The notes below the pieces were generated by a model that saw only the letters and a program-made list of their open reading frames with translations, searched no databases and had not been told where the DNA came from. This document shows, piece by piece, positions 8,675 to 50,138 of a stretch of 64,000 nucleotides of DNA. This stretch comes from an uncultured Gammaproteobacteria bacterium (GTDB lineage Bacteria; Patescibacteriota; Patescibacteriia; DYHP01). How positions within the stretch are numbered: position 1 is the stretch's first letter; each line of letters begins with the position of its first letter. The translations under genes and the position numbers were made by a program. The stretch spans positions 40,654-104,653 of the forward strand of contig CAZGDX010000001.1 in assembly GCA_964525225.1 (NCBI GenBank), given 5' to 3'.

Positions 8675-8746
8675 GCCCTTGTAGCTTAATGGATAAAGTA
8701 GCGGTCTTCGGAACCGCTGATGTAGGTTCGATTCCTACCAAGGGCA
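8675..8746 (+). tRNA. tRNA-Arg (anticodon TCG)
   Basis: Manual cloverleaf: acceptor gcccttg/caagggc, anticodon stem gcggt/accgc, loop cttcgga, T-arm gtagg-ttcgatt-cctac, 4-nt variable loop. No encoded CCA. Confidence 0.85.
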
Positions 8747-8816
8747 TAGGCGATGGCAGGTGTGTTGAGGATTGGCAATCAGGGTTTGATTTTATCAGGA
8801 TGCTGTAAATAATTAC

Positions 8817-8889
8817 GCGCCCATAGCTCAATTGGCAGAGCAGATCCCTCTTAAGGATAAGGTTACAGGTTCGATTCCTGTTGGGCGCA
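8817..8889 (+). tRNA. tRNA-Lys (anticodon CTT)
   Basis: Acceptor gcgccca/tgggcgc, anticodon loop ctcttaa, T-arm acagg-ttcgatt-cctgt; 73 nt. Confidence 0.85.
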
Positions 8890-8940
8890 TTTTTGTTTAT
8901 TTAATTTTAAAAATACCCCGGATAAGCCGGGGTATTATTG

Positions 8941-9486
8941 TCAGATTGGTTCGTCTGTTGGTTCCGAGGTTCCTGATTCTGCCGGAGCCGGGTCGGATAC
9001 TTCTTCATAGTTGATGTTTTCGGGGTCAACTCCGTACATCATAAGCGCAAAAATAATTGCCAGCGCGCGGTCGCGGTTTATGCTGTTGTCGCCGGTTTCC
9101 GATATGGAAATAATGGAAATTCCCTGTAAATGGGAAGCCCGGTTGATGACCTCCGCGATAAGCCGAAGATTAATGTCAAGTTCGCTGGAAATGGCGGTAT
9201 TGGTATGGTTGCCAAAATCCGCAAAAAATGATAATCCGCCTTGTGTCATTTGGCCATTTCTGTCAACTACGACAACTCCAACCAAAATCCCGAGACCGCG
9301 TTGCCACATGTTTTCATCGTCCAGACGCGGGATCGTGCCGGAAAGCCGCGCCTCAATCGTTTCAATCTCGTTGGGTGTGATTTCGGCATCCGGAATACTG
9401 GAAATGGTTTGCCGCTGTTGTCCGGCGCATCCGCAGAAAATAACGAAAATAAGCGTAAAAATCAGGAACAAAGCGGCGTTTTTCAT
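8941..9486 (-). CDS. hypothetical secreted lipoprotein
   Basis: Signal peptide ending in the lipobox-like FCGCAG; RBS AAGGAG upstream; no recognised domain. Confidence 0.5.
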   Translation of the reverse strand: MKNAALFLIFTLIFVIFCGCAGQQRQTISSIPDAEITPNEIETIEARLSGTIPRLDDENMWQRGLGILVGVVVVDRNGQMTQGGLSFFADFGNHTNTAISSELDINLRLIAEVINRASHLQGISIISISETGDNSINRDRALAIIFALMMYGVDPENINYEEVSDPAPAESGTSEPTDEPI

Positions 9487-9684
9487 TTTCTCTTCTCCTT
9501 TTTTGTTTTCTCTCTTTACAGAGAGATTTTTAAATTTAGGCGGTTTTTAAAGGTCTATTTTGTTTTATCTTATATCTTATGAGTTTATTCGTCAAGTGTA
9601 ATAAAGGCCCCAGAAGTTTAGTTTTAAAATGGCTTAATTTAGCTAATAATTCGTGTTGACATTGATGGTTTGCCGTACACCCTC

Positions 9685-9713
9685 TTGACAAATTTTTTAA
9701 AATATGCTATATT
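9685..9713 (+). promoter_or_regulatory. consensus promoter TTGACA-17-TATATT for the tRNA cluster
   Basis: TTGACA at 9685-9690, 17-nt spacer, TATATT at 9708-9713, about 30 nt upstream of tRNA-Leu. Confidence 0.7.
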
Positions 9714-9744
9714 ACTTTGATACTTACAATACAAGTGAGTACCG

Positions 9745-9830
9745 GCTGAGATGGCGAAATGGCAGACGCCGGGCGCTTAAAACGCCCTGTCCCTCGGGAC
9801 GTGCGGGTTCAAATCCCGCTCTCGGCACCA
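9745..9830 (+). tRNA. tRNA-Leu (anticodon TAA), class II with long variable arm, CCA encoded
   Basis: Anticodon stem gggcg/cgccc, loop cttaaaa, variable arm tgtccctcgggacgt, T-arm gcggg-ttcaaat-cccgc, 3' end ...tctcggcacca. Confidence 0.85.
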
Positions 9831-9851
9831 AAAGACGGATTTTATCCGTCT

Positions 9852-9924
9852 GGCCCGGTAGTTAAGTGGCAATAACGCCCGCCTTATAAGTGGGAAGACG
9901 GGGGTTCGAGTCCCTCCCGGGTCA
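9852..9924 (+). tRNA. tRNA with anticodon TAT (AUA-decoding tRNA-Ile2-type), canonical 73-nt cloverleaf
   Basis: Acceptor ggcccgg/ccgggtc, D-arm gtta-agtggcaa-taac, anticodon stem cccgc/gtggg, loop cttataa, T-arm ggggg-ttcgagt-ccctc. Confidence 0.75.
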
Positions 9925-9944
9925 CTAAAGGCAGAAATGTCTTT

Positions 9945-10022
9945 GCGCCGTTAGAGGCTTAATAGGTTAGAGCCGCTGCTTAAGCATAGCAGAGGATGCA
10001 GGTTCGAATCCTGCACGGCGCG
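9945..10022 (+). tRNA. non-canonical tRNA-like gene (78 nt)
   Basis: Perfect 7-bp acceptor gcgccgt/acggcgc, good T-arm gcagg-ttcgaat-cctgc and D-arm ggct-taataggttag-agcc. Two extra nt lie between acceptor and D-stem, and the anticodon loop reads taagcat (A at position 33; anticodon would be AGC). Confidence 0.45.
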
Positions 10023-10024
10023 CA

Positions 10025-10075
10025 GGGGGTCCGCGTTGTTACGTTAAGGATAAAGGGAATAACAACGCGGACCCC
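10025..10075 (+). other. perfect 15-bp-stem hairpin (ggggtccgcgttgtt / aacaacgcggacccc, 21-nt loop) between tRNA genes
   Basis: Seen directly; it starts 3 nt after the tRNA-like gene, and tRNA-Lys follows immediately downstream. Confidence 0.6.
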
Positions 10076-10082
10076 ATTTCTC

Positions 10083-10158
10083 GGGTTAGTAGCTCAGTTG
10101 GCAGAGCACCGGACTTTTAATTCGATGGTCGAGGGTTCGAGCCCCTCCTGACCCACCA
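10083..10158 (+). tRNA. tRNA-Lys (anticodon TTT), CCA encoded
   Basis: Acceptor gggttag/ctgaccc, D-arm gctc-agttggca-gagc, anticodon loop cttttaa, T-arm gaggg-ttcgagc-ccctc. Confidence 0.85.
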
Positions 10159-10202: not shown

Positions 10203-10377
10203 CTTATTAGTTTTTACGTAAATTTATTTTGTTTTCGTTTATTGTCTTGAAAAGCTGTAAATTGCGGCTTGTTTGGATAATTGGCGAAAATGGTTTTGCC
10301 AATTGGGTCGTTGAAAATTAACCCTCCATTTGGAAAATGGAGGCAAACAAAAAAGAAAAAAGAAGGAGGATGTTGAG

Positions 10378-12681
10378 ATGAGGCACGAGAACACGGATTT
10401 GAATAACGCGATTTGTTTGGGTGTTTTTGCCGCTGTCGCGACGATTGTTTTTTTCGTGATGTCCGGATGCATTCAGGAGGACCTGCGGCGGACTTGCGAC
10501 GATTCGGATTGTTGCGCCGAGGATTCCGATTGCGATGACGAGCTTGCGTGCACGACCGATTCTTGCGTGCGCGGAGAATGCATGTTTACTGCGGTTGACG
10601 AATTGTGTGCCGATGGCGAGGTTTGCAACCTTGCGAGCGGCTGCGTTACCGAAAATGAGTGCGACGATGACGGAGATTGTGAAGACGCCTTTGATTGTAC
10701 TGGTGATGACTGCATTGGTGGCGTCTGCATTCACGTGGCGGATTCCGACCTCTGCGAAGAGGACGAGGTTTGCAATGAGTCAAGCGGATGTGTCCGCGAG
10801 GCAGAGTGTGTTTTTGACCGCGACTGCGACGAGGAAGGCCCGGATTGCAATGCCGATCGGTGCGCGGACGGAACCTGCGAGCGCGAGCCCAGCGATGGGC
10901 TTTGCGCCGACGGCTATGTCTGTAACGCGAGCGGCATTTGTGTTTTGGGTCATGAAGACGAGTGTGACGACGACGAAGATTGCGAGGATGGTGTGGCTTG
11001 CACCGAAGACGATTGTAGCGTCGGCAGGTGCATTTTCCGTCCTATGGATAATCGCTGCGACTCGTTTGAAGAGTGCGATGTCGAGCTCGGATGCGTTTGG
11101 GAGAGTTGGGTGCAGTGCGAGGTGAGTGGCGAGTGCACGGACGGTGTGGGTTGCACACGCAATATGTGTATTGGCCATCTATGTGTGTTTGAGCCAATGG
11201 ATGAGTCCTGCGGCGAGAACGAGCGTTGCGACACAACGCTCGGATGCATTGCAATGCCGGAGTGCGATGACGATACGGATTGCGATGATGGACAAATTTG
11301 CACGACCGACACTTGCGACGATGGCGAGTGCGCCAATACTCCAGTGAATAGTCGATGCGATGACGGCAATTACTGTTCTGCTGATATCTGTTTGGCTTCT
11401 GGTGAGTGCGTTCATATGCCACTCGATAGCTACTGTGCCGCGGACGGCGAACATTGTTCGCTGGCTGCCGGCGGTTGCGTGGAGTGTACTTCCAACAGCC
11501 ACTGCGCGGATTTTGAGTTTTGCAACGCCGATTACGAGTGCGAGAGCGGATGTGGTTCGTGCGACGATGGTGTTTTTTGCACCAATGATATTTGCACAAT
11601 TTATGGTTGTACTCACACCGCGACAAACTCTCGATGCGGCAGTTCTTTGCCGTATTGCCACTCGACCCGCGGTTGCGTGGAATGCCTCACAGACGCTCAT
11701 TGCGCGAGCAATGAACACTGTGATGGTTATGTCTGCGTGGCAGACGCCGAGTGCGATGCTGATTCTGACTGCGACGATTCCATCGCCTGCACTACCAACG
11801 ATTGCGATACTGCCGGACGTTGTCTTTACACGCCGAACGACGCTTTTTGCGATGATGGCGTGTACTGCACAGTAGACGATTGTTCGCTTGCCGAGCGCGG
11901 TTGTACTCACACCGCGACAAACTCTCGATGCGGCAGTTCTTTGCCGTATTGCCACTCGACCCGCGGTTGCGTGGAATGCCTCACGGATTCTCACTGTGGG
12001 ACGGGCGAGTATTGCAGCAGTTATGTCTGCGTGGTCGATGCCGAGTGTGATTATGATGCCGATTGTTCTGACGGCGTGTACTGTACTGTGGACGACTGCG
12101 CGAGCGGTTTCTGCACGAACACGGCCGACAACACGCGTTGTTCCTATGGTTTGCTTTGCCATTTGACCGCTGGTTGCGTGGAGTGCAGGACAGACGCGGA
12201 TTGTAGTTCTTCCGAGAGCTGCGCCTCGGACCACACTTGTGTATCCGATATCTGCACTTACGATTCTGACTGTTCCGACGACATTGCCTGCACGGTGGAC
12301 GACTGCACGTCGGCTCACGATTGCACGCACACGGCGATGAATTCGCTGTGTCTGTCTGGACAGTATTGCGATCCTCTATACGGATGCCGCACGAGCACTG
12401 GTTCCGATCTGGACTACGATGGCATTCCGGACAGTTCCGATAACTGTCCGACAACGCCAAATCCCGGGCAGGCAGACATGGATTATGACCACATCGGCGA
12501 CGTGTGCGACTGTGATGTGGACGGCGACGGTTCTGTCGCGTTCATCTGTGGTGGCTGGGATTGTAACGACTACAATAACAGCGTGCATCCCGGCGCTTGG
12601 GAGGATTGCGACGACGGCATGGATAATGATTGTGATGACCTGATCGATGGTTACGATGCCGACTGCGGTTGCTGTTCCTGA
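10378..12681 (+). CDS. large secreted/lipoprotein-like Cys- and Asp-rich repeat protein with C-terminal thrombospondin type-3-like Ca-binding repeat and MopE-like (CxDxDxxxxPGAxExCDGxDNDCD) motif
   Basis: Start set at the ATG with AGGAGG at 7-nt spacing. Signal peptide ends in the lipobox-like VMSGC. About 10 repeats of the CxxDxDCxDxxxCTxDxCxxGxC...CxDGxxC pattern. C-terminus: DYDGIPDSSDNCPTTPNPGQADMDYDHIGDVCDCDVDGDG, then CNDYNNSVHPGAWEDCDDGMDNDCDD. GC about 55%. Confidence 0.8.
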   Translation: MRHENTDLNNAICLGVFAAVATIVFFVMSGCIQEDLRRTCDDSDCCAEDSDCDDELACTTDSCVRGECMFTAVDELCADGEVCNLASGCVTENECDDDGDCEDAFDCTGDDCIGGVCIHVADSDLCEEDEVCNESSGCVREAECVFDRDCDEEGPDCNADRCADGTCEREPSDGLCADGYVCNASGICVLGHEDECDDDEDCEDGVACTEDDCSVGRCIFRPMDNRCDSFEECDVELGCVWESWVQCEVSGECTDGVGCTRNMCIGHLCVFEPMDESCGENERCDTTLGCIAMPECDDDTDCDDGQICTTDTCDDGECANTPVNSRCDDGNYCSADICLASGECVHMPLDSYCAADGEHCSLAAGGCVECTSNSHCADFEFCNADYECESGCGSCDDGVFCTNDICTIYGCTHTATNSRCGSSLPYCHSTRGCVECLTDAHCASNEHCDGYVCVADAECDADSDCDDSIACTTNDCDTAGRCLYTPNDAFCDDGVYCTVDDCSLAERGCTHTATNSRCGSSLPYCHSTRGCVECLTDSHCGTGEYCSSYVCVVDAECDYDADCSDGVYCTVDDCASGFCTNTADNTRCSYGLLCHLTAGCVECRTDADCSSSESCASDHTCVSDICTYDSDCSDDIACTVDDCTSAHDCTHTAMNSLCLSGQYCDPLYGCRTSTGSDLDYDGIPDSSDNCPTTPNPGQADMDYDHIGDVCDCDVDGDGSVAFICGGWDCNDYNNSVHPGAWEDCDDGMDNDCDDLIDGYDADCGCCS

Positions 12682-12718
12682 TGTCAACCACACCTTGAAA
12701 GGAGGTGAATAGTTCTTT

Positions 12719-12752
12719 GAGGGTTTCCTAATATAGGAAGCCCTCTTTTTTA
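12719..12752 (+). terminator. Rho-independent terminator after the Cys-rich gene
   Basis: gagggtttccta...taggaagccctc stem followed by TTTTTT. Confidence 0.7.
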
Positions 12753-12760
12753 TCTCCGTA

Positions 12761-12831
12761 TGTCATCCTCGGGGCAGCGAAGCGGATCCCTGGGATCCAC
12801 GTGGATTCCCCGAACAAGTCGGGGAATGACA
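12761..12831. repeat. GTCATCC hairpin element, copy A (about 71 bp, imperfect terminal inverted repeats tgtcatcc.../...ggaatgaca)
   Basis: Shares tgtcatcct.ggggc.gcg.agcggatcc.tgggatccacgtggatt with copy B at 20584 and the opening hairpin with copies at 53593 and 59846. Confidence 0.6.
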
Positions 12832-12993
12832 GAATGGTTTAGGGCGAGGTAATCCTTTATCTCTTTGTTCCTCTTGACATCTTTTTATTTTTTTGTTAAG
12901 ATAATGTGACATCTTTAAAAAACGCCCGAAAATAAAAAAACGGGCAAAAAACCGTCCTACGCTAAAAAGCTGCGGACGGCAAAGGAGGACAAA

Positions 12994-13671
12994 ATGGCAG
13001 GAAGAAGCGCGCTCGTGGCTCTATGTGTTCTTTTCGTTTTTGGTACCATGGGTTCCAGTTGCGCGGTTCAGCCGCCACCGGAGCCGGTGGAGTGCTATTC
13101 GGACAGCGATTGTTATGACGGCGTGAATTGCACTGATGATTATTGCTTCCGCAATTTTTGTGAGAATTACGAGAATGATGAAAATTGTCCGGTAAACGAG
13201 TGGTGCGATATGCGCCGCGGATGTATCAGCAACGATGTCCCGCCCCCTGTTGATTGCCATAGCGATATCGATTGTTTTGATGGAGTTTATTGCACCTGGG
13301 ACCTGTGCGAACAGGGCGAATGCGGAAATTACGACAGCGGAATTTGCGGAGTCGGGTACTATTGCGATTCGCTTTTGGATTGCCAGCCGATCGTCACGGT
13401 TTACGACTCTGATGGTGATGGTATTGAGGATTCTATAGACAACTGTTGGGAATTTTATAACCCGTGGCAGGAAGATATGGATTGGGACGGTTGGGGTGAC
13501 GCTTGCGATTGCGACGCGGATGGCGATTGGTACGACGACGCTGTTTGGTGTGGCGGATTGGATTGCAACGATTACGATTTGTATGTCAACCCCAGCGCTG
13601 TTGAGTGGTGTAACGATTGGATTGACAATGACTGTGATGGGTATATTGATTATTACGATTACTGCTGGTAA
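12994..13671 (+). CDS. smaller secreted paralog of the Cys-rich repeat protein (same repeat type, TSP3-like and MopE-like C-terminal motifs)
   Basis: Signal peptide with a GSSC lipobox-like site. Carries DSDGDGIEDSIDNCWEFYNPWQEDMDWDGWGDACDCDADGD, then CNDYDLYVNPSAVEWCNDWIDNDCDG. Confidence 0.75.
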   Translation: MAGRSALVALCVLFVFGTMGSSCAVQPPPEPVECYSDSDCYDGVNCTDDYCFRNFCENYENDENCPVNEWCDMRRGCISNDVPPPVDCHSDIDCFDGVYCTWDLCEQGECGNYDSGICGVGYYCDSLLDCQPIVTVYDSDGDGIEDSIDNCWEFYNPWQEDMDWDGWGDACDCDADGDWYDDAVWCGGLDCNDYDLYVNPSAVEWCNDWIDNDCDGYIDYYDYCW

Positions 13672-13680
13672 CAGTTTTTA

Positions 13681-13712
13681 TGCCCTTGGCAAATATGCCA
13701 AGGGTTTTTTAT
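13681..13712 (+). terminator. Rho-independent terminator (gcccttggc aaatat gccaaggg + T-run)
   Basis: Hairpin plus TTTTTT immediately after the stop. Confidence 0.7.
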
Positions 13713-13934: not shown

Positions 13935-14456
13935 ATGGATTTAAGACATCACATCCGCGAAGTTCCGGATTGGCCGAAATTAGGTATCCGTTTTTACGAC
14001 ATAACCACGCTTCTGGAAAATCCCGAAGCGTTGAAATATGCGATAGATAAATTAGCCGAGCCATTCCAAAATCAGAAAATAGATAAAGTTGTCGGCATTG
14101 ACGCGCGCGGTTTTTTGCTCGCATCCGCGGTTGCGTACATTTTGGGTTCAGGCGTTTCACTTGTCAGGAAAAAAGGAAAATTGCCGTATAAAACAATCTC
14201 CCGCGATTATACTTTGGAATACGCGTCAAACACCGTGGAAATGCACGAAGACACTATTAAACAGGGAGAAAGGGTGATTTTAATAGATGATTTAATTGCC
14301 ACAGGAGGCACCGCTTGCGCCGCGGTTGAGCTTATAGAACAAATGGGCGGACAAATTGTCGGAGTTGGATTTTTGGTGGATTTACCGTTTTTGGGAGGAA
14401 TAGAGCGATTATCAAAGTACAGTCCGTTTTCATTGGTAAAGTATCAAAACGAGTAA
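13935..14456 (+). CDS. apt: adenine phosphoribosyltransferase
   Basis: VILIDDLIATGGT PRPP-binding motif; 173 aa. Confidence 0.9.
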   Translation: MDLRHHIREVPDWPKLGIRFYDITTLLENPEALKYAIDKLAEPFQNQKIDKVVGIDARGFLLASAVAYILGSGVSLVRKKGKLPYKTISRDYTLEYASNTVEMHEDTIKQGERVILIDDLIATGGTACAAVELIEQMGGQIVGVGFLVDLPFLGGIERLSKYSPFSLVKYQNE

Positions 14457-14542
14457 GGAACAAAACTCCCACTAATCCATACCACTAATCCGCACTAATT
14501 ATTCGTGAGTATTGGTGGCAGAAATTAGTGGAAGTCTAGTAC
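14457..14542. repeat. 85-bp palindromic intergenic element, copy 1 (between apt and mtnP)
   Basis: Ends aacaaaactcccactaat / attagtggaagtctagtac with a cgcactaattattcgtg core; four further copies in the window. Confidence 0.7.
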
Positions 14543-14556
14543 ATAATTTATAGACT

Positions 14557-17248: not shown

Positions 17249-18055
17249 CTATGCGCTTTTTATTTCTTTATAAATTCTTTCTATTTTTTTTGCTTTTTTA
17301 GTTTTGGGATCAATCTGTATCAGGACAGCGTTTAGTATTGCCGGCCATTCATCCGCAATTTCATATTTATGTTTTGTCCCCTCTGTATAAGATTTTACAA
17401 TACTTTCAGGATTTTCGCCAATTATGGAGTTTTTCGCGCCCGTCATTCCGACATCCGTGATGTAGGCGGTTGATTTATCAAACATTTGTTCGTCAGCCGT
17501 CGGTACGTGAGTATGTGTTCCGACCAGCGCCGAGATTCTTCCTTTGGCATAATGCAGAAGCGCTATTTTTTCCGATGTTGCTTCAGCGTGAAAATCTACA
17601 AATATTCCGTTCAGTTTTTCTTTCTTGTATTTTTCGAGTATCTTATCAAGAGTTTTAAAAGGGGATTCGTATTCTTCTTGGATGAAGACTTGCCCGTTTA
17701 AATTTATCACCAAAAGTTTATACTTCCCACTCTTGATTATTTTTTCTCCATCTCCAGTTTTGTTTTTATGGTTTGCCGGGCGGATAATAATGTTATTTAG
17801 CGCCGTGTCGGCAAACACTTTTTCTGCCTCATCTTTTTTGTCAAAAATATGATTGCCGGAGGTAAAGAATTGCGCGCCGGCATCAAGCGCGTCCGCCACT
17901 GTTTTTCTGGTAATTCCAAGCCCGTGCGCCAAGTTTTCCGCATTGGCGATGATAAAATTTGGCTTATATTTTTTAATCAAAGAAGGCAGGGCTTTGCGCA
18001 CCGTCTGCCTTCCGATTTTTCCGATTAAATCTCCGATAAAGAGAATTTTTAACAT
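17249..18055 (-). CDS. ymdB: YmdB-like metallophosphoesterase (2',3'-cyclic-nucleotide phosphodiesterase family)
   Basis: MLKILFIGDLIGKIGR...GNH metallophosphatase motifs; sits immediately downstream of rny, as in many bacteria. Confidence 0.85.
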   Translation of the reverse strand: MLKILFIGDLIGKIGRQTVRKALPSLIKKYKPNFIIANAENLAHGLGITRKTVADALDAGAQFFTSGNHIFDKKDEAEKVFADTALNNIIIRPANHKNKTGDGEKIIKSGKYKLLVINLNGQVFIQEEYESPFKTLDKILEKYKKEKLNGIFVDFHAEATSEKIALLHYAKGRISALVGTHTHVPTADEQMFDKSTAYITDVGMTGAKNSIIGENPESIVKSYTEGTKHKYEIADEWPAILNAVLIQIDPKTKKAKKIERIYKEIKSA

Positions 18056-18062
18056 AAATAAT

Positions 18063-18148
18063 GTACTAGACTTCCACTAATTAATATCACGAATTCGCAC
18101 TAATAATTCGTGCGTATTCGTGGTTTAGATTTGTGGAAGTTTTGTTCC
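18063..18148. repeat. 85-bp palindromic intergenic element, copy 2 (between rny and ymdB)
   Basis: gtactagacttccactaat...cacgaattcgcactaataattcgtgcg...agatttgtggaagttttgttcc. Confidence 0.7.
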
Positions 18149-18157
18149 TTTTATCAC

Positions 18158-20583: not shown

Positions 20584-20745
20584 TGTCATCCTTGGGGCCG
20601 CGGAGCGGATCCTTGGGATCCACGTGGATTTTTGCCGGCGGACTTTGGGTCACCAGGCACGTCTCCGTATTTACTTTGGGGTGTCGGGCACCTCTCCTTG
20701 GTCTTTGCGGCACACCGCGGACAACGGAGCGGTACCCGACATCAT
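20584..20745. repeat. GTCATCC hairpin element, copy B (longer, about 160 bp, 61% GC)
   Basis: The first 55 bp are near-identical to copy A; the remainder is a unique GC-rich sequence with no obvious ORF. Confidence 0.55.
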
Positions 20746-22485: not shown

Positions 22486-22587
22486 GGGTACTAAACTTCC
22501 ACAAATCTATGCCACGAATACGCACGAATTAGAAAATTAATTTATTAGTGCGAATTAGCGATAGAAATTAGTGGGAGTCTAGTTCCT
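22486..22587. repeat. 85-bp palindromic intergenic element, copy 3 (fills the groES-groEL spacer)
   Basis: actaaacttccacaaatctatgccacgaatacgcacgaattag...attagtgcgaattagcgatagaaattagtgggagtctag. Confidence 0.7.
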
Positions 22588-28197: not shown

Positions 28198-28284
28198 GGG
28201 ATACAACTTCCACTAATTTTTTTCACCAATAAGCACGAATAATTAGTGCGGATTAGTGATATAGATTTGTGGGAGTCTTGTTCC
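28198..28284. repeat. 85-bp palindromic intergenic element, copy 4 (12 bp upstream of nusA start)
   Basis: gatacaacttccactaat...cacgaataattagtgcggattagtg...agatttgtgggagtcttgttcc. Confidence 0.7.
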
Positions 28285-28449
28285 TTTTTAATTAGTGCTT
28301 AATAAAAATGACCAGTCCGCAGAGACCAGTCCTTATGTTTTTATAATACTATAAATTGAAATAAATGTCAAGCGATTGACAAAAGTTGAGTTTTTTGATA
28401 AGTTGATTTAATGTTCGTTAAAATAAAAAAAAGAAAGAAGGGAAAGAAA

Positions 28450-29620: not shown

Positions 29621-30196
29621 ATGGAATACAAATGCGAAGAGTGCGGTTATAAGTGGAATCGCATTGAAGCTGGCCGGGCAAGATATTGCCAGCGATGCGG
29701 TTCGGATAGGATAGCACAGATTGGTTTGATAGGAGAAGCGTGGAGGACCATCAAGCTCGGTCTCCACAAGAGCGTTGACGAGTATCATCGCGCTCTCCAT
29801 GCGGCTGGTTTTTACATCAATAGCTGGGCCGATGATATTCTCGGACGCGTCACTTTTTCTGTGGCGGAAAGAGAAGTTAATCTTGTTGTTCGTTCCGTCG
29901 CCGAGCTGGGATTCGCCAATGGCGCCACATTCGCGCAAATCTGTGACGCCGCCAAGAAGCTCGGTCTGTCGCTGTGCCCCGCGGAAGTTGGTCCGGCGTT
30001 CCGCGAGCAGTATTGCGATCAGCCGATGTACGAATGGCTTATCATTGCCATGGAGCCGATTTCCGCCTCGGACGGCAGCCTCCGCGTGTTCTACGTGGCG
30101 CGCATTGGTGACGGTCTCTGGCTGGGCAACAGCTATGGCTCTCCCAGGGTTGTCTGGAATGCTGGCAACCGGTTCGTGTTCGCGTCCAGCAGGTGA
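29621..30196 (+). CDS. hypothetical protein, N-terminal C4 zinc ribbon plus a ~150-aa domain of an unrecognised family (paralog 1); GC-rich, foreign-looking
   Basis: MEYKCEECGYKW...CQRCGS, then WRTIKLG...CPAEVGPAFREQYCDQPMYEWLIIAMEP. GC about 57% with GC3-rich codons. Clear homology to the ORF at 46068-46571. Confidence 0.6.
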   Translation: MEYKCEECGYKWNRIEAGRARYCQRCGSDRIAQIGLIGEAWRTIKLGLHKSVDEYHRALHAAGFYINSWADDILGRVTFSVAEREVNLVVRSVAELGFANGATFAQICDAAKKLGLSLCPAEVGPAFREQYCDQPMYEWLIIAMEPISASDGSLRVFYVARIGDGLWLGNSYGSPRVVWNAGNRFVFASSR

Positions 30197-30898: not shown

Positions 30899-30985
30899 TT
30901 GTACAAAACTTCCACAAATCTATGCCACTAATCCGCACTAATTATTCGTGAGTATTTGTGATAAAAATTAGTGGAAGTCTATTTC
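30899..30985. repeat. 85-bp palindromic intergenic element, copy 5 (10 bp upstream of methyltransferase start)
   Basis: gtacaaaacttccacaaatctatgccactaatccgcactaattattcgtgagtatttgtgataaaaattagtggaagtctatttc. Confidence 0.7.
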
Positions 30986-30990
30986 ATTTA

Positions 30991-31248
30991 TTATTTTACC
31001 CCTTGGAATATCGGACCGAAAAACCACATTATTATATCATCCAAACTTCCGCTTACCCAGATAAAACAGATTAAGATTATTAAAATTCCGAGAAGTTTGT
31101 AAAAAGTGTGCGAACCGCCGAAAGTTCCCAGATATTTTTCCGCGAACGGCACGCTGCCGACATTGTACAAAAACCAGGTGGCTTTCCAGACAAGCAAAAA
31201 TCCCAAGACCATTCCGCCGATTCCCAAAATGTATTTTATAATGCCCAT
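30991..31248 (-). CDS. small membrane protein, hypothetical
   Basis: Two TM helices; 85 aa. Confidence 0.4.
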   Translation of the reverse strand: MGIIKYILGIGGMVLGFLLVWKATWFLYNVGSVPFAEKYLGTFGGSHTFYKLLGILIILICFIWVSGSLDDIIMWFFGPIFQGVK

Positions 31249-43547: not shown

Positions 43548-44678
43548 ATGTCTGAACACGACATGAAACACGACCACAAGAGATTTAAAGATGTTATTAG
43601 GGGAAAGATTAGAAAAAATCTTAAAAAGTATGTTGCCCGCGGAGAAAATATTGTCAGACGGTATAAAGATAATGATGGTAATGTTCGCGAGAAGATTTTG
43701 GCGCCGATGCCTTGGATTGATATGCCAAGATTTACTTGGGACGATAAGCAACGCGGAGGTGTTGGACAGGGAGATGGCAAAGAAGGAGACCCGCTTTCCG
43801 GCAAAGAAGGTGAAGATTATGGAGATGCCGGCGAGCATGCCGGCGAGCACTTGATTGAGGAATTTACAATGGAGGATTTTGTGGATTTAATAGCCGAAGA
43901 TTTGGAATTGCCCGACCTCACAGAAACCGCAAAGAAATTTATCGTGGATGTAAAAAATGTTTATCGCGGGATTCAGCGCCATGGTCCGAAAGGGCTGATG
44001 CATAAAAAACGGACGCTTAAAAGAGCGTTGGCGCGGCAAATGTCTTCTGGAAATTATGACCCGCAAAATCCGATTTTGATTCCCGAACCGCCGGACCATC
44101 GTTACAAAGGTCCAAAGCCGAAAATTGTTGAAAGTATCCGGGCGGTTGTTTTTTTAATGAAAGATTGCTCCGGGAGTATGGGCGCGGAGCAGAATGAAAT
44201 GCTTAGAAATCTTGATTTTTGGATTCTTCGGTGGATTATGCGAAATTATAAAAAAACAGATACGAGATTTATTATTCACGATACCGACGCCAAAGAAGTT
44301 GATGAAGATATTTTTTTTAAGATGTCATCTAACGGTGGCACGCAAATTTCGTCCGCTCTCCGGCTGGCTCTAAAAATTATTGACGAGGAATATCCGCCCG
44401 AAGATTGGAATATTTATATGTTATACGGTTCGGACGGGGATAATTTTGATTCCGACAATCACGGTTGCGTTAATCTTTTGCGTAGCAGAATTCTTCCGGA
44501 TACCGTTAGAATGTTCGGCTACACGCAAGTGAAAAGTCCGTATTCAAGCAATAGGTTTAAAAATATTCTGGAAGGAAATTTTACTCCAAAAATGCGAGAA
44601 AAAATAAGGATTGCCAAAATGAATAGCATTGATGACACAATGAAAGCCATGAAAAAACTGTTTGGAAAGAAAAAGTAA
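43548..44678 (+). CDS. YhbH/YeaH-family (DUF444) protein with vWA-like domain
   Basis: FLMKDCSGSMG... is the DUF444 signature; 376 aa. Confidence 0.7.
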   Translation: MSEHDMKHDHKRFKDVIRGKIRKNLKKYVARGENIVRRYKDNDGNVREKILAPMPWIDMPRFTWDDKQRGGVGQGDGKEGDPLSGKEGEDYGDAGEHAGEHLIEEFTMEDFVDLIAEDLELPDLTETAKKFIVDVKNVYRGIQRHGPKGLMHKKRTLKRALARQMSSGNYDPQNPILIPEPPDHRYKGPKPKIVESIRAVVFLMKDCSGSMGAEQNEMLRNLDFWILRWIMRNYKKTDTRFIIHDTDAKEVDEDIFFKMSSNGGTQISSALRLALKIIDEEYPPEDWNIYMLYGSDGDNFDSDNHGCVNLLRSRILPDTVRMFGYTQVKSPYSSNRFKNILEGNFTPKMREKIRIAKMNSIDDTMKAMKKLFGKKK

Positions 44679-49249: not shown

Positions 49250-49800
49250 TCCTTGAAATAAGAAAACCGGATAGCTGCCCCACACCTTTTGGCTTTTATT
49301 ATTTAAGTTTCGTCTATGTTCTATGTTTATATCTTAAAAAGCATGCAAAGGCCCTAGTCCAATTAAAGAGAAGAATAAGATGGTCGCTAGATGAAAGCTA
49401 AAAGGTGTGGGGAGGAAAGTCCGAACACCATTCTTCGCAGCAATGCGGGGCTTAGAGGTAGTCGCTAACGGCGACGGGGAGTAAATAATTTTGTTTTATC
49501 GCGGATTTGCGTTTATAGCGCAAACAAGCGAATGCAGTTTTAAGAAGCCCACGGATAGTGTCTTGAAAAAGGTTTGTTTTTCTTGTAGTAATATAAGAAA
49601 GATAAGCAACAGAAAATATACCGCCGAATTCCCGATTTTTCGGGAATGGCAAGGTTGAAATCGTGAGGTAAGAGCTCACGCGTAACCGCAGCGATGCGGC
49701 ATGTGGCAAACACCTACCCGGTGCAAGGTTTAAAAACCGCTTGAGCTTTATAGAAATATAAAGCCCAGAGAAATAGCTATCCACCCCTCACACGGAAAGC
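49250..49800 (+). ncRNA. rnpB: RNase P RNA (bacterial type), with an unusually long insertion in the P3 region
   Basis: Universally conserved GGAGGAAAGUCCG (P4 5' strand), ACAGAAAAUAUACCGCC, GGUAAGAGCUCACG and CACCUACCCGGUGCAAGG blocks in the canonical order. P1 candidate pairing ggatagct(49282)/agctatcc(49778). Ends are approximate. Confidence 0.75.
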
Positions 49801-50138
49801 GATTGTGTGCAACGCTTGATATTATTGGCGATATTTTAAAATGTCACTTAGAAATATTAAATGTTCAAATTATTGCATACTTTCGTTTTTTCGCTTTCCG
49901 TGTGAAGGGGGACAGAATTCGGCTTATAGGTTATCTTATATTTAAGGAACAAAAATACGCTTGAGTACTCAAGCGTATTTTTGTTTGAACACCAACTGTG
50001 TACAATTCCAATTGACACAAGTCCAAAAAAATGGTATAATATATGTGTAAGCTCGAAAAGGGTTTACTAAAACAAAAAAATAGAAATGCCCCAATTTAAT
50101 CCGCGTATAGGCGTGGAACATCTGTGGCAAAAACAAAA

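What the first reader, a model, noticed from the sequence alone, without database searches (positions are those of the whole stretch)
10378..13671. Pair of GC-rich, secreted Cys/Asp-rich repeat proteins with thrombospondin-type-3-like and MopE-like metal-binding C-termini
A 768-aa protein (10378-12681) and a 225-aa paralog (12994-13671) both begin with lipoprotein-like signal peptides. Both consist of about 35-45-aa Cys repeats (C.DSDC.DG..CT.DDC..G.C...P.D..CDDG.YC...) and end with a calcium-binding TSP3-type repeat (D.D.DG..D..DNCP...NP.Q.D.D.DG.GD.CD) followed by the CxDxDxxxxPGAxExCNDxxDNDCDG putative metal-binding motif. The big gene is about 55% GC, against about 40% for the genome. Proteins of this kind are candidate surface adhesins or host-attachment proteins, which would matter biologically for an episymbiotic, reduced-genome bacterium. 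The repeat type does not match any family I can name precisely.
Basis: partly seen in the sequence, partly recalled or inferred. Interest (0 to 1): 0.65.

Follow-up and report, generated by a model that had tools for sequence, protein, structure and literature searches.

The report
Cysteine-rich surface protein pair, Patescibacteria
Two real but poorly annotated genes of an ultrasmall (Patescibacteria) bacterium encode exported, extremely acidic, lysine-free proteins built from disulfide-type cysteine modules and tipped by a calcium-binding head. They are probably cell-surface stalks or adhesins made of already known building blocks, not a new kind of system.

Summary
10378-12681 (767 aa, "p1") and 12994-13671 (225 aa, "p2") are genuine coding genes. 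Each has an AAGGAGG ribosome-binding site and an N-terminal hydrophobic signal ending in a lipobox-like Cys, and p2 has its own promoter-like site and terminator.

The body is not an unnamed repeat. It consists of about 50-aa, 8-Cys modules that reach NCBIfam TIGR04201 (the Myxococcus TraA stalk repeat) and fall just below the Pfam Dicty_CTDC cut-off. AlphaFold (pLDDT 80) models each module as two beta-hairpins.

Both proteins end in one thrombospondin type-3 repeat plus a PF11617 motif, a unit found in tens of thousands of bacterial proteins. The "copper/MopE" label is weak; calcium binding is more likely.

New points: the mature proteins contain no lysine, carry net charges of about -154 and -49, and hold 54% of the cysteines in the window's 53 ORFs. 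IMG called antisense ORFs over p1.

The 55% GC is mainly an amino-acid-composition effect. The genes sit in conserved synteny in at least five related lineages, so recent transfer is not supported.

They evolve 4-5 times faster than their neighbours, with module indels and discordant heads.

Best reading: membrane-tethered, Ca2+-stabilised surface stalk-and-head proteins, possibly adhesins. This is a new member of a known kind, of moderate interest.

The parts
10363..10369 (+). Shine-Dalgarno AAGGAGG of p1, 8 nt before the ATG at 10378
   Evidence: It is the only one of six in-frame start candidates that has an SD.
10378..12681 (+). p1: 767-aa Cys/Asp-rich exported protein (signal, stalk, head)
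   Evidence: pN 0.227 against pS 0.744 versus the L009 orthologue. Identical DNA in four independent assemblies.
10378..10470 (+). p1 signal region, residues 1-31: hydrophobic core 12-26, lipobox-like VMSG|C31
   Evidence: PROSITE-type lipobox rule met; Kyte-Doolittle 2.71. The G-C pair is conserved in all five orthologues.
10471..11412 (+). p1 N-terminal stalk, residues 32-345: six tandem 49-52-aa 8-Cys modules
   Evidence: AlphaFold2 mean pLDDT 80.4, two beta-hairpins per module.
11413..12405 (+). p1 C-terminal stalk, residues 346-676: three more 8-Cys units, three extra CTDC-type half units and four TIGR04201-type units
   Evidence: TIGR04201 37.2 bits (cut-off 25), 4 stretches. Dicty_CTDC 24.5 bits (cut-off 27).
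11605..12065 (+). Recent internal tandem duplication with a 294-nt (98-aa) period: 11605-11771 and 11899-12065
   Evidence: 83-94% DNA identity. The Logan assemblies break in this stretch: L005 ends at 11634 and L001 starts at 11955.
12400..12537 (+). p1 head, part 1: one thrombospondin type-3 repeat (DLDYDGIPDSSDNCP...DMDYDHIGDVCDCDVDGDG)
   Evidence: TSP_3 38.8 bits. COMP 3fby E=5e-33; TSP-2 1yo8 and TSP-1 1ux6 also hit.
12559..12648 (+). p1 head, part 2: PF11617 motif (DCNDYNNSVHPGAWEDCDDGMDNDCDDLID)
   Evidence: PF11617 35.4 bits. MopE 2vov residues 5-45, E=1.7e-5. Weak teneurin-4 C-rich 7plp, E=0.087.
12719..12745 (+). Terminator-like hairpin (12-bp stem plus T-run) after p1
12874..12902 (+). 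Promoter-like site for p2 (TTGACA-17-TAAGAT, TG-extended)
   Evidence: consensus match only
12982..12988 (+). Shine-Dalgarno AAGGAGG of p2, 5 nt before the ATG
12994..13671 (+). p2: 225-aa short paralogue. Signal 1-23, two 8-Cys modules 34-132, Trp/Tyr-rich TSP3 plus PF11617 head 133-225
   Evidence: pN 0.179 against pS 0.732. Head has 9 Trp and 9 Tyr in 93 aa.
13682..13705 (+). Terminator-like hairpin after p2
8941..9486 (-). Conserved neighbouring 181-aa lipobox protein of unknown function, embedded in the tRNA cluster. It may belong to the same variable surface-protein locus; membership is uncertain.
   Evidence: Lipobox rule met. Orthologues at the same position in L009 (46% identity) and L007 (42% identity). 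No Pfam or PDB match.
8675..10158 (+). tRNA cluster (Arg, Lys, Leu, Ile-tat, a weak tRNA, Lys-ttt) immediately upstream of p1. It is the synteny anchor in relatives.

Best explanation
p1 and p2 are exported cell-envelope proteins of a Patescibacteria bacterium.

Proposed mechanism:
1. Each is taken across the membrane by an N-terminal Sec-type signal. It is probably held at the outer face of the cytoplasmic membrane through the conserved Cys that ends the signal, either by lipoprotein-type acylation or, failing that, by an uncleaved signal anchor.
2. The body folds into a chain of small modules, two beta-hairpins each, locked by four disulfides per roughly 50-aa unit. There are about 12 such units in p1 and 2 in p2.
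3. At the far end this chain carries an approximately 90-aa head: one thrombospondin type-3 repeat plus a PF11617 motif. The head is built around bound Ca2+ ions.
4. With no lysine and a net charge of about -154 (p1) or -49 (p2), the whole molecule is a polyanionic, cation-loaded rod.
5. The head is the likely interaction surface and the stalk sets its reach.

The most likely role is adhesion or surface recognition, of a host cell or of matrix, by analogy with the Myxococcus TraA stalk and the MtsC cohesion protein.

Shown here: the genes are coding, the module and motif identities, the hairpin fold prediction, fast mosaic evolution and a narrow clade distribution.

Inferred: export, lipidation, disulfides, Ca2+ binding and adhesion.
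For: Coding status and starts:
- SD sites precede both ATGs.
- pN is far below pS (0.227/0.744 for p1; 0.179/0.732 for p2).
- Every Cys aligned after the signal region is invariant.

Export signal:
- Hydrophobic cores with Kyte-Doolittle 2.4-3.3 are followed by a conserved Cys. The PROSITE lipobox rule is met by p1, p2, P0001 and P0259.
- There is no C-terminal hydrophobic sorting tag (sequence).

Modules:
- TIGR04201 scores 27.5 and 37.2 bits, above its cut-off of 25.
- TIGR04201 was defined on the Cys-rich repeats of the TraA surface receptor, proposed to form a rigid stalk with oxidised cysteines (PMC3325183).
- Homologues carry PF00526.
- AlphaFold2 gives pLDDT 80.4 with two hairpins per module.
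- The nearest, non-significant structural neighbours are all extracellular tandem EGF-type arrays.

Head:
- TSP_3 and PF11617 are above their cut-offs.
- COMP hits at E=5e-33.
- The type-3 repeat and the teneurin C-rich motif related to PF11617 are experimentally Ca2+-binding (PMC9058538; PMC3278476).
- The head matches the TSP3 region of the cell-cohesion protein MtsC locally (PMC11980579).

Composition:
- There are 0 Lys in the 737 + 203 mature residues, against 9.8% Lys in the background, with net charges of -154 and -49.
- p1 and p2 hold 54% of the Cys in the window's 53 ORFs.

Surface-protein style of evolution:
- dN is 4-5 times that of neighbouring housekeeping genes.
- Orthologues differ by whole-module indels (503-767 aa).
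- Head similarity (88% between window and P0002) is discordant with stalk similarity (52%).
- The sister species carries an extra paralogue.

Feasibility and precedent:
- CPR bacteria widely encode an MdbA-like oxidoreductase, often next to VKOR (10.1101/335083).
- Large Cys-rich extracellular proteins proposed to act in attachment were reported in CPR Peribacteria (PMC4736985).
Against: - No experimental or expression data exist.
- No signal-peptide predictor was available. The n-region of the p1 family is neutral or acidic (net -1, -2, 0), which is atypical for Sec and lipoprotein signals.
- The lipobox is not conserved in all orthologues: AMPGC in L009, MNGC in L010, and T or N at position -1 in three p2 homologues.
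- Lgt, LspA and Dsb/MdbA/VKOR genes were not found among the window ORFs that were scanned, and the rest of the genome could not be examined.
- The head could not be modelled (pLDDT 38).
- pTM 0.30 means stalk rigidity is not established.
- No binding partner or lectin-type domain was identified.
- The episymbiotic lifestyle is assumed from the phylum only.
Confidence: 0.55

Rival explanations
1. Non-adhesive envelope scaffold or cation reservoir. On this reading the polyanionic, Ca2+-loaded rods are structural components of the wall or S-layer zone, or buffer divalent cations, rather than recognising a partner.
For: - Extreme acidity and lysine absence along the whole length, not only in the head.
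- No recognisable lectin or receptor domain.
- The head unit occurs in up to 58 matched stretches in giant proteins of many bacteria, which suggests a generic structural unit.
Against: - Fast, mosaic evolution with head swapping and paralogue gain is more typical of interaction surfaces than of scaffolds.
- The Trp/Tyr-rich head of p2, with 18 aromatic residues in 93, looks like a binding face.
Confidence: 0.22
2. Copper or other metal acquisition or sequestration protein, MopE/CorA-like or metallothionein-like, using the PF11617 motif and/or reduced cysteines.
For: - PF11617 'Cu-binding_MopE' is above its cut-off in both proteins.
- There are 117 Cys and 176 acidic residues in mature p1.
- The N-terminal 24 residues of MopE* contribute to weak Cu(II) retention on IMAC (PMC3423442).
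Against: - The match covers only residues 5-45 of the MopE* chain. These are disordered or cleaved in the crystal, and the high-affinity Cu(I) site (His132, His203, kynurenine) lies elsewhere and has no counterpart here (PMC3423442).
- PF11617 'lacks specificity' (PMC6189053).
- Cys spacing of 4-8 residues, 8 per module, with predicted hairpins fits disulfide modules, not CxC/CxxC thiolate clusters.
- His and Met are scarce.
Confidence: 0.07
3. The pair is a recently acquired foreign island, from Myxococcota- or Planctomycetota-like donors, inserted at a tRNA cluster. That would explain the high GC.
For: - The pair is adjacent to a tRNA cluster.
- p1 GC3 is 0.597 against 0.499 expected, about +2 SD, and Glu GAG is 74% against 15% in the background.
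- All homologues outside the clade that carry an organism name come from Myxococcota, Planctomycetota or Binatia.
- The only hit among 185,579 GTDB species genomes was a Myxococcota genome at 26% identity.
Against: - About 70% of the GC excess is explained by amino-acid composition (0.515 expected against 0.552 observed). p2 is within 1 SD.
- The same genes sit at the same tRNA/PilT/APRT position in L009, L007, L008 and L010.
- Identity to any outside protein is at most 38%.
- SD sites are of host type.
- An ancient acquisition cannot be excluded.
Confidence: 0.1
4. Not a real gene: a chance ORF in a compositionally odd stretch, an assembly artefact, or a case where the antisense ORFs called by IMG are the true genes.
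For: IMG calls antisense ORFs of 327, 132 and 138 aa over p1 and keeps only a 67-aa fragment of it. Long antisense ORFs do exist, for example 383 aa at 11179-12330.
Against: - Sequence is 100% identical in four independent assemblies.
- pN is far below pS in the sense frame.
- Cysteines are invariant.
- Curated domain hits occur only in the sense frame.
- Orthologues show 47-68% identity.
- An SD precedes the ATG.
- Antisense openness follows from GAY/TGY-rich codons, whose complements contain no stop codons.
Confidence: 0.01

Closest known systems
Myxococcus xanthus TraA (Cys-rich repeat stalk, TIGR04201) and other Myxococcota 'cysteine-rich repeat proteins'
   Same: p1 reaches the TIGR04201 cut-off, with four units. 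It is homologous (E about 1e-35, 27-38% identity) to proteins built of the same kind of roughly 50-aa 8-Cys module. These proteins are secreted, cysteine-rich and proposed to act as rigid stalks that present a recognition domain (PMC3325183).
   Different: - No PA14 domain and no MYXO-CTERM tag. Anchoring, if any, is N-terminal (lipobox-like).
- The TraA model scores 11.5 bits against a cut-off of 750.
- The host is a monoderm-like Patescibacteria bacterium.
- The head is TSP3 plus PF11617.
Thrombospondin/COMP type-3 repeats (PF02412; PDB 3fby, 1yo8, 1ux6) and bacterial TSP3-containing envelope proteins (OmpA-family 5wtl; MtsC)
   Same: One complete type-3 repeat with the DxDxDGxxDxxDNC...DxDxDxxGDxCD pattern and its Cys pair. 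There is a local match to the TSP3 segment of MtsC, a cell-cell cohesion protein (PMC11980579).
   Different: - Only one repeat, rather than a 7-repeat 'wire' followed by a lectin-like C-terminal domain.
- MtsC model scores 33-36 bits against a cut-off of 350.
- Not a member of those protein families, only of the repeat family.
PF11617 'Cu-binding_MopE' motif, and the teneurin C-rich Ca2+-binding domain
   Same: - The motif CxDxDxxxxPGxxExCDDGxDNDCD is above the Pfam cut-off.
- The TSP3-plus-PF11617 unit (profile positions about 135-221) recurs widely: 55,788 representative proteins at E<=1e-3.
- The p1 tail CDDGMDNDCDDLIDGYDADCGCCS resembles the teneurin core motif tabulated in PMC3278476, which binds three Ca2+ ions in teneurin-4 (PMC9058538).
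   Different: - There is no similarity to the copper-site domain of MopE (PMC3423442).
- The teneurin match is sub-significant (7plp, E=0.087).
Large cysteine-rich extracellular proteins of CPR Peribacteria (Anantharaman et al. 2016)
   Same: CPR bacteria with a signal peptide and high Cys content, weak similarity to Myxococcus Cys-rich repeat proteins, strain-level variation and a proposed attachment role (PMC4736985).
   Different: - Those proteins average 1,655 aa and about 7% Cys, and belong to a different CPR phylum.
- No homology to p1/p2 was tested or shown here.
- p1/p2 are smaller and about twice as Cys-rich, and have a defined TSP3/PF11617 head.
Dictyostelium CTDC repeat proteins (PF00526)
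   Same: The CxDxxxCTxDxCxxxGxCxxxP half of each module is of CTDC type. Most homologues of p1 carry PF00526.
   Different: p1 itself stays below the Pfam cut-off, with a best score of 24.5 against 27. PF00526 was listed among repeat families without a known structure (PMC8078820), so fold identity cannot be checked.

Membership tests
Pfam PF02412 TSP_3 (thrombospondin type-3 repeat) | Score at or above the gathering cut-off (25 bits) | tested here: met
   p1 residues 667-767 score 38.8 bits. The p2 head alone scores 28.0 bits, while full-length p2 scores 22.2 bits.
Pfam PF02412 TSP_3 | DxDxDGxxDxxD Ca2+-binding motifs with the intra-repeat Cys pair | tested here: met
   Sequence DLDYDGIPDSSDNC...DMDYDHIGDVCDCDVDGDG aligns to COMP/TSP-1/-2 repeats. 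The acidic positions and Cys are invariant in the family.
Pfam PF02412 TSP_3 | Actual Ca2+ binding | not testable with these tools
   Needs biochemistry or a structure with ions. The AlphaFold model of p2 was unusable.
Thrombospondin/COMP protein family | Signature domain: an array of type-3 repeats followed by a lectin-like C-terminal domain | tested here: not met
   There is only one repeat. The protein ends 47 residues after it. The PDB matches are confined to the repeat.
Pfam PF11617 Cu-binding_MopE motif | Score at or above the gathering cut-off (27 bits) | tested here: met
   p1 35.4 bits. p2 37.3 and 39.3 bits.
MopE/CorA copper-binding proteins | Homology to the domain carrying the Cu(I) site (two His plus kynurenine) | tested here: not met
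   Only residues 5-45 of chain 2vov_A are matched. That region is absent from the crystal structure and the Cu(I) site lies elsewhere (PMC3423442).
NCBIfam TIGR04201 Myxo_Cys_RPT | Score at or above the cut-off (25 bits) | tested here: met
   Full-length p1 scores 27.5 bits. p1 residues 346-671 score 37.2 bits in 4 stretches. The p1 N-terminal stalk and p2 gave no hit.
Pfam PF00526 Dicty_CTDC | Score at or above the gathering cut-off (27 bits) | tested here: not met
   Scores of 17.4, 22.9 and 24.5 bits, depending on the segment scanned. The link exists only through homologues that carry PF00526.
LDL-receptor class A module | Any Pfam match to Ldl_recept_a | tested here: not met
   No hit was listed at the E<=10 setting on module segments, although HMMER's filters drop most matches above about 0.1.
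Bacterial lipoproteins (Lgt/LspA substrates) | Lipobox after a hydrophobic signal (PROSITE PS51257-type rule) | tested here: inconclusive
   The rule is met by p1, p2, P0001 and P0259. It fails in the L009 p1 orthologue (AMPGC), and in P0256, P0257 and the L009 p2 orthologue, which have T or N at position -1. P0258 (ASC) is also not counted as a match by the rule. L010 has MNGC.
Bacterial lipoproteins (Lgt/LspA substrates) | Presence of lgt and lspA in the genome | not testable with these tools
   Neither was found among the ORFs scanned in the 64-kb window. The rest of the genome is not available.
TraA outer-membrane-exchange receptor (NF033759) | Full-length model score (cut-off 750), PA14 domain, MYXO-CTERM | tested here: not met
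   11.5 bits. No PA14 hit. No C-terminal hydrophobic tag.
MtsC cell-cohesion protein (NF047638) | Equivalog score (cut-off 350) | tested here: not met
   33-36 bits, covering only model positions 194-266.
Teneurin C-rich Ca2+-binding domain | Significant sequence match to the solved domain (7plp) | tested here: inconclusive
   Profile of 13 head motifs against PDB: 7plp_A at E=0.087, 16 bits. The motif resemblance is taken from PMC3278476.

The most novel reading that the evidence does not exclude
p1 and p2 form a length-variable, head-swappable recognition system of a narrow Patescibacteria clade. A lipid-anchored, Ca2+-rigidified, lysine-free stalk presents an exchangeable TSP3/PF11617 head that determines which host cell, or which surface glycan, the episymbiont attaches to. 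The short, aromatic-rich p2 acts as a second-specificity or co-receptor form. Complete avoidance of lysine would then be an adaptation, for example resistance to host or environmental trypsin-like proteases or to amine-reactive chemistry. The locus would be a host-range determinant that standard annotation has missed.
Probability: 0.2. Interest if true: 0.65.

Novelty: new member of a known kind. Interest (0 to 1): 0.38.

Why it matters
How ultrasmall Patescibacteria attach to and recognise partner cells is largely unknown outside a few cultivated Saccharibacteria.

This locus gives a concrete, compact candidate: two exported, disulfide-type, Ca2+-motif proteins that evolve quickly, vary in module number and show discordant heads between close relatives.

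It also shows a practical annotation problem. Genes of this composition, rich in Cys and Asp and free of Lys, are open on the antisense strand. IMG mis-called p1, and the full-length protein is absent from a collection of 15 billion sequences. Surface proteins of this type may therefore be under-counted in CPR genomes.

The building blocks themselves are known and widespread, so the biological novelty is modest unless a host-recognition role is demonstrated.

Tried and rejected
1. AlphaFold2 of p2 with a 7-sequence alignment gave pLDDT 37.8 and was unusable.
3. The PDB sequence search with the p1 stalk found no relative.
4. The scan of GTDB species genomes with p1 found one Myxococcota locus at 26% identity.
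5. The viral contig scan gave no relative. PADLOC defence models gave no hit. Phage and defence readings were dropped.
6. The metagenome scan with the p2-family alignment found only one further full-length member, L010. The other 79 loci share only the head.
7. No LDLa hit appeared, so the LDLa-like idea was rejected.
8. I suspected from memory that the neighbouring 181-aa lipoprotein had an OmpA-like peptidoglycan-binding C-terminus, which would parallel TraB. Pfam at the E<=10 setting found nothing, and a 3-sequence profile against PDB gave only two non-significant, unrelated hits (E=0.93). The idea was rejected for lack of support.
9. I looked for lgt, lspA, dsb, mdbA and VKOR in the window. 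None was found among the ORFs scanned.
10. Exact look-ups of p1 with alternative starts (783, 767 and 740 aa) found none in the protein collection. Only the 67-aa IMG fragment is present.
11. dN/dS as a ratio is not reliable, because synonymous sites are saturated (pS 0.73-0.74). Only pN against pS and relative dN are used.

Full report
**Observation.** p1 is 15.4% Cys and 16.3% Asp. p2 is 11.6% Cys and 17.8% Asp. GC is 55.1% for p1 and 49.3% for p2, against 41.7% for the window, and the 10-13 kb region is the GC maximum of the profile. Each ATG is preceded by AAGGAGG, at 8 nt and 5 nt respectively. Of six in-frame start candidates for p1, only 10378 has such a site. A terminator-like hairpin follows p1 (12719-12745). 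A TTGACA-17-TAAGAT site precedes p2 (12874-12902), and another hairpin follows p2 (13682-13705). They therefore look like separate transcription units, on consensus matches only. tblastn found no further paralogue in the window.

**Are they real genes?** Yes.
- The DNA is 100% identical in three JGI metagenome assemblies and one Logan assembly.
- Against the orthologues in a sister species (L009, GroEL 94%), pN is 0.227 and pS 0.744 for p1, and 0.179 and 0.732 for p2. That means clear purifying selection in this frame.
- Every Cys aligned after the signal region is invariant across eight family sequences.
- IMG nevertheless called antisense ORFs (327, 132 and 138 aa) over p1 and kept only a 67-aa C-terminal fragment. 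Full-length p1 with a 767-, 783- or 740-aa start is absent from the 15-billion-protein collection.
- The antisense strand is open because GAY and TGY codons have stop-free complements. This is an annotation artefact, not evidence against p1.

**Anatomy of p1.**
- Residues 1-31 contain a hydrophobic core and end in VMSG-C31.
- Residues 46-345 are six tandem modules of 49-52 aa, each with eight Cys spaced C-x5-C-x5-C-x4-C-x4-C-x8-C-x5-C-x5-C.
- Residues 346-676 hold three more such units, three extra CTDC-type half units and four units of the form C-x-[TS]-[DN]-x-x-C-x3-E-x-C-x4-5-C. This region includes a recent 294-nt tandem duplication, at 11605-11771 and 11899-12065, with 83-94% DNA identity. 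The short-read Logan assemblies break in this stretch.
- Residues 677-767 are the head.

**Anatomy of p2.** It has a signal (1-23), two of the same modules (34-132) and the same head (133-225).

**Naming the pieces.**
- *Head.* TSP_3 scores 38.8 bits (cut-off 25) and PF11617 scores 35.4 bits (cut-off 27) in p1. In p2, PF11617 scores 37-39 bits and TSP_3 scores 28.0 bits when the head is scanned alone. Against PDB sequences the p1 head hits COMP (E=5e-33), thrombospondin-2 and -1, and residues 5-45 of MopE* (E=1.7e-5).
- *Stalk.* TIGR04201 Myxo_Cys_RPT is reached, at 27.5 bits on full length and 37.2 bits on residues 346-671, against a cut-off of 25. Pfam Dicty_CTDC stays just below threshold, with a best score of 24.5 against 27. 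No LDLa match appears.
- *Homologues.* Apart from two close relatives (P0001 at 56%, P0002 at 47%), they are 25-38%-identical "cysteine-rich repeat proteins". Most carry PF00526, and those that have an organism name come from Myxococcota, Planctomycetota or Binatia. Their consensus shows the same 8-Cys module with slightly different loop lengths.
- So the repeat does belong to a named class. TIGR04201 was defined on the Cys-rich stalk of the Myxococcus surface receptor TraA (PMC3325183).

[quoted passage not shown] That part is disordered or cleaved in the crystal. The high-affinity Cu(I) site (His132, His203, kynurenine) lies elsewhere (PMC3423442), and others have noted that the model lacks specificity (PMC6189053). 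The same motif class was aligned to the teneurin Cys-rich region (PMC3278476). In teneurin-4 that region is a disulfide-bonded domain binding three Ca2+ ions, two of them coordinated as in thrombospondin type-3 repeats (PMC9058538). A profile of 13 head motifs hits MopE (E=2.5e-5). It hits acyloxyacyl hydrolase and the teneurin-4 C-rich crystal only weakly, at E of about 0.02-0.04 and E=0.087 respectively. Calcium is therefore the better-supported ligand, by inference. The TSP3-plus-PF11617 unit is very common: 55,788 representative proteins at E<=1e-3 and 2,400 at E<=1e-30, with up to 58 matched stretches in a single giant protein.

**Organism and locus.**
- GroEL is 80% identical to "Patescibacteria group bacterium" and 71-72% identical to Ca. 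Uhrbacteria/Magasanikbacteria. The window is part of a 107-kb contig.
- p1 lies directly after a tRNA cluster (8675-10158) that also encloses a conserved 181-aa lipobox protein on the other strand. PilT is upstream and APRT is downstream.
- The same arrangement is found in L009, L007, L008 and L010. Three further p2 homologues come from contigs of the same lengths as three contigs that carry APRT relatives, which suggests the same adjacency.
- L009 has an extra p2 paralogue and an inserted ORF. L010 adds a third lipobox ORF with an Asp-rich tract.
- The p2 family is tiny. There are five homologues among 5.8 billion proteins, one further full-length locus in 241 million metagenome records, and p2 itself is the only protein among the 150 best representative hits that matches the whole profile.

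**GC and horizontal transfer.** With the codon usage of 51 other window ORFs, p1's amino-acid sequence alone predicts GC 0.515 against 0.552 observed, so about 70% of the excess is compositional. GC3 is 0.597 against 0.499 expected, which is +0.098 or about 2 SD. The shift is driven by avoidance of A-ending codons; Glu GAG is 74% against 15% in the background. p2 deviates by only +0.033. Together with host-type SD sites and conserved synteny, this argues against recent acquisition. An old acquisition from a Myxococcota-like lineage cannot be excluded.

**New observations.**
- The mature parts of p1 and p2 contain no lysine: 0 of 737 and 0 of 203 residues. The housekeeping proteins sampled from the window contain 9.8% Lys. 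The ten family members examined have 0-3 Lys each.
- Net charge is -154 for p1 and -49 for p2.
- Together the two proteins hold 144 of the 266 Cys (54%) encoded by 53 window ORFs, while making up 6% of the residues.
- The p2 head is aromatic-rich, with 9 Trp and 9 Tyr in 93 aa against 2 Trp and 5 Tyr in the p1 head. The Trp richness (9-11 per mature protein) is shared by five of the six p2-family sequences examined, and most of the aromatic positions are conserved among them.

**Evolution.**
- Protein divergence from the sister species is 4-5 times that of neighbouring genes: dN is 0.27 and 0.20, against 0.03-0.06.
- Orthologues range from 503 to at least 767 aa through whole-module indels.
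- Similarity is mosaic. The window head is 88% identical to that of P0002 although their N-terminal stalks are 52% identical. With L009 the stalk is 68% and the head 63% identical. Two head types are distinguishable, ending in ...CGCCS or ...GGCS(Y).

**Mechanism (best reading, confidence about 0.55).**
- *Shown:* the genes are coding, the module and motif identities, the predicted hairpin modules, the extreme acidity, and fast mosaic evolution in a narrow clade.
- *Inferred:*
  - Sec export.
  - Tethering through the signal-terminal Cys. The PROSITE lipobox rule is met by p1 and p2 but not by all orthologues, and the p1 family has a non-basic n-region.
  - Four disulfides per module. This is feasible because CPR bacteria commonly encode MdbA-like oxidoreductases, often next to VKOR (10.1101/335083).
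  - Ca2+ loading of the head, and perhaps of the acidic module junctions.
  - A surface interaction or adhesion role. This rests on analogy with the TraA stalk (PMC3325183), the MtsC cohesion protein, whose TSP3 segment the head matches locally (PMC11980579), and the Cys-rich extracellular proteins proposed for attachment in CPR Peribacteria (PMC4736985).
- Because there is no C-terminal anchor, the head would sit at the distal end of an N-terminally tethered stalk.

**Rivals.**
- A non-adhesive envelope scaffold or cation reservoir (about 0.22).
- Copper or other metal handling (about 0.07). This is disfavoured by where PF11617 maps in MopE and by the Cys spacing.
- A recent foreign island (about 0.10).
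- A non-gene (about 0.01).

**Verdict.** The finding is real and well described, but it is assembled from known, widespread modules, and Cys-rich extracellular proteins have already been noted in CPR genomes. It is a new member of a known kind. What is worth keeping:
- the lysine-free polyanionic composition;
- the mosaic heads;
- the clade-restricted short paralogue;
- the annotation failure.

Interest: 0.38.

Noticed in passing
window 14455-14551, 18054-18150, 22487-22583, 30903-30998 (+) and 28206-28288 (-): A roughly 90-nt intergenic repeat in five copies, 72-89% identical in pairwise BLAST matches, with nested inverted repeats (CTTCCAC...GTGGAAG and CGCAC...GTGCG). Three of the copies lie just past the stop codons of APRT, the YmdB-like gene and GroEL. 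It could be a REP/MITE-like element, a shared terminator or a small RNA.
   Followed up: partly
window 12761-12807 and 20584-20630: A 47-nt GC-rich element (TGTCATCCTCGGGGCAGCGAAGCGGATCCCTGGGATCCACGTGGATT) occurs in the p1-p2 spacer and again downstream of the PAP2-family gene, at 91% identity.
   Followed up: partly
window 8675-10158; L009 2158-4174; L007 1338-1864: The tRNA cluster upstream of p1 changes content between close relatives. The window has Leu-taa / Ile-tat / a weak tRNA at 9947-10020 / Lys-ttt. L009 has Leu / Gln-ttg / an undetermined tRNA / Lys. L007 has Leu / Glu-ttc / Leu-caa / Lys. tRNA-Ile(UAU) is itself uncommon.
   Followed up: no
window 29621-30196 (+): A 191-aa ORF is the other compositional outlier: GC 0.56, GC3 0.63, which is +0.14 over expectation. 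Its N-terminus has CxxC...CxxC, which looks like a zinc ribbon, and it has no Pfam match.
   Followed up: partly
window 8941-9486 (-): A 181-aa lipobox protein sits inside the tRNA cluster. It is conserved at this position in L009 (46% identity) and L007 (42% identity) and is fast-evolving (dN 0.44). It has no Pfam or PDB relative. An OmpA-like C-terminus was suspected but not supported.
   Followed up: yes
window 10318-12330 (- strand ORFs); L003 7325-9169: IMG gene calls over p1 are antisense ORFs (327, 132 and 138 aa) plus a 67-aa sense fragment. The p2 region and the L009 locus are also called as fragments. This looks like a systematic mis-annotation of Cys/Asp-rich, Lys-free genes.
   Followed up: yes
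window 49367-49942 (+): The RNase P RNA (bacterial class A) spans 576 nt against a 367-position model and only just passes the Rfam gathering score (103.4 against 100). This suggests large insertions.
   Followed up: no
L010 (Ga0210057_1036844), downstream of the p2 orthologue; L009 6873-7424 and 8718-9425: The locus gains genes in relatives. L010 has a third lipobox ORF with a long (D-x)n Asp-rich tract. L009 has a 183-aa ORF inserted between p1 and p2, and a second p2 paralogue (identical to P0259).
   Followed up: partly
window 43548-44678 (+): A DUF444-family protein (252 bits) is encoded next to FtsK and glycosyltransferase genes. From memory, not checked here, DUF444 corresponds to the YeaH/YhbH stress- or sporulation-associated family.
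   Followed up: no
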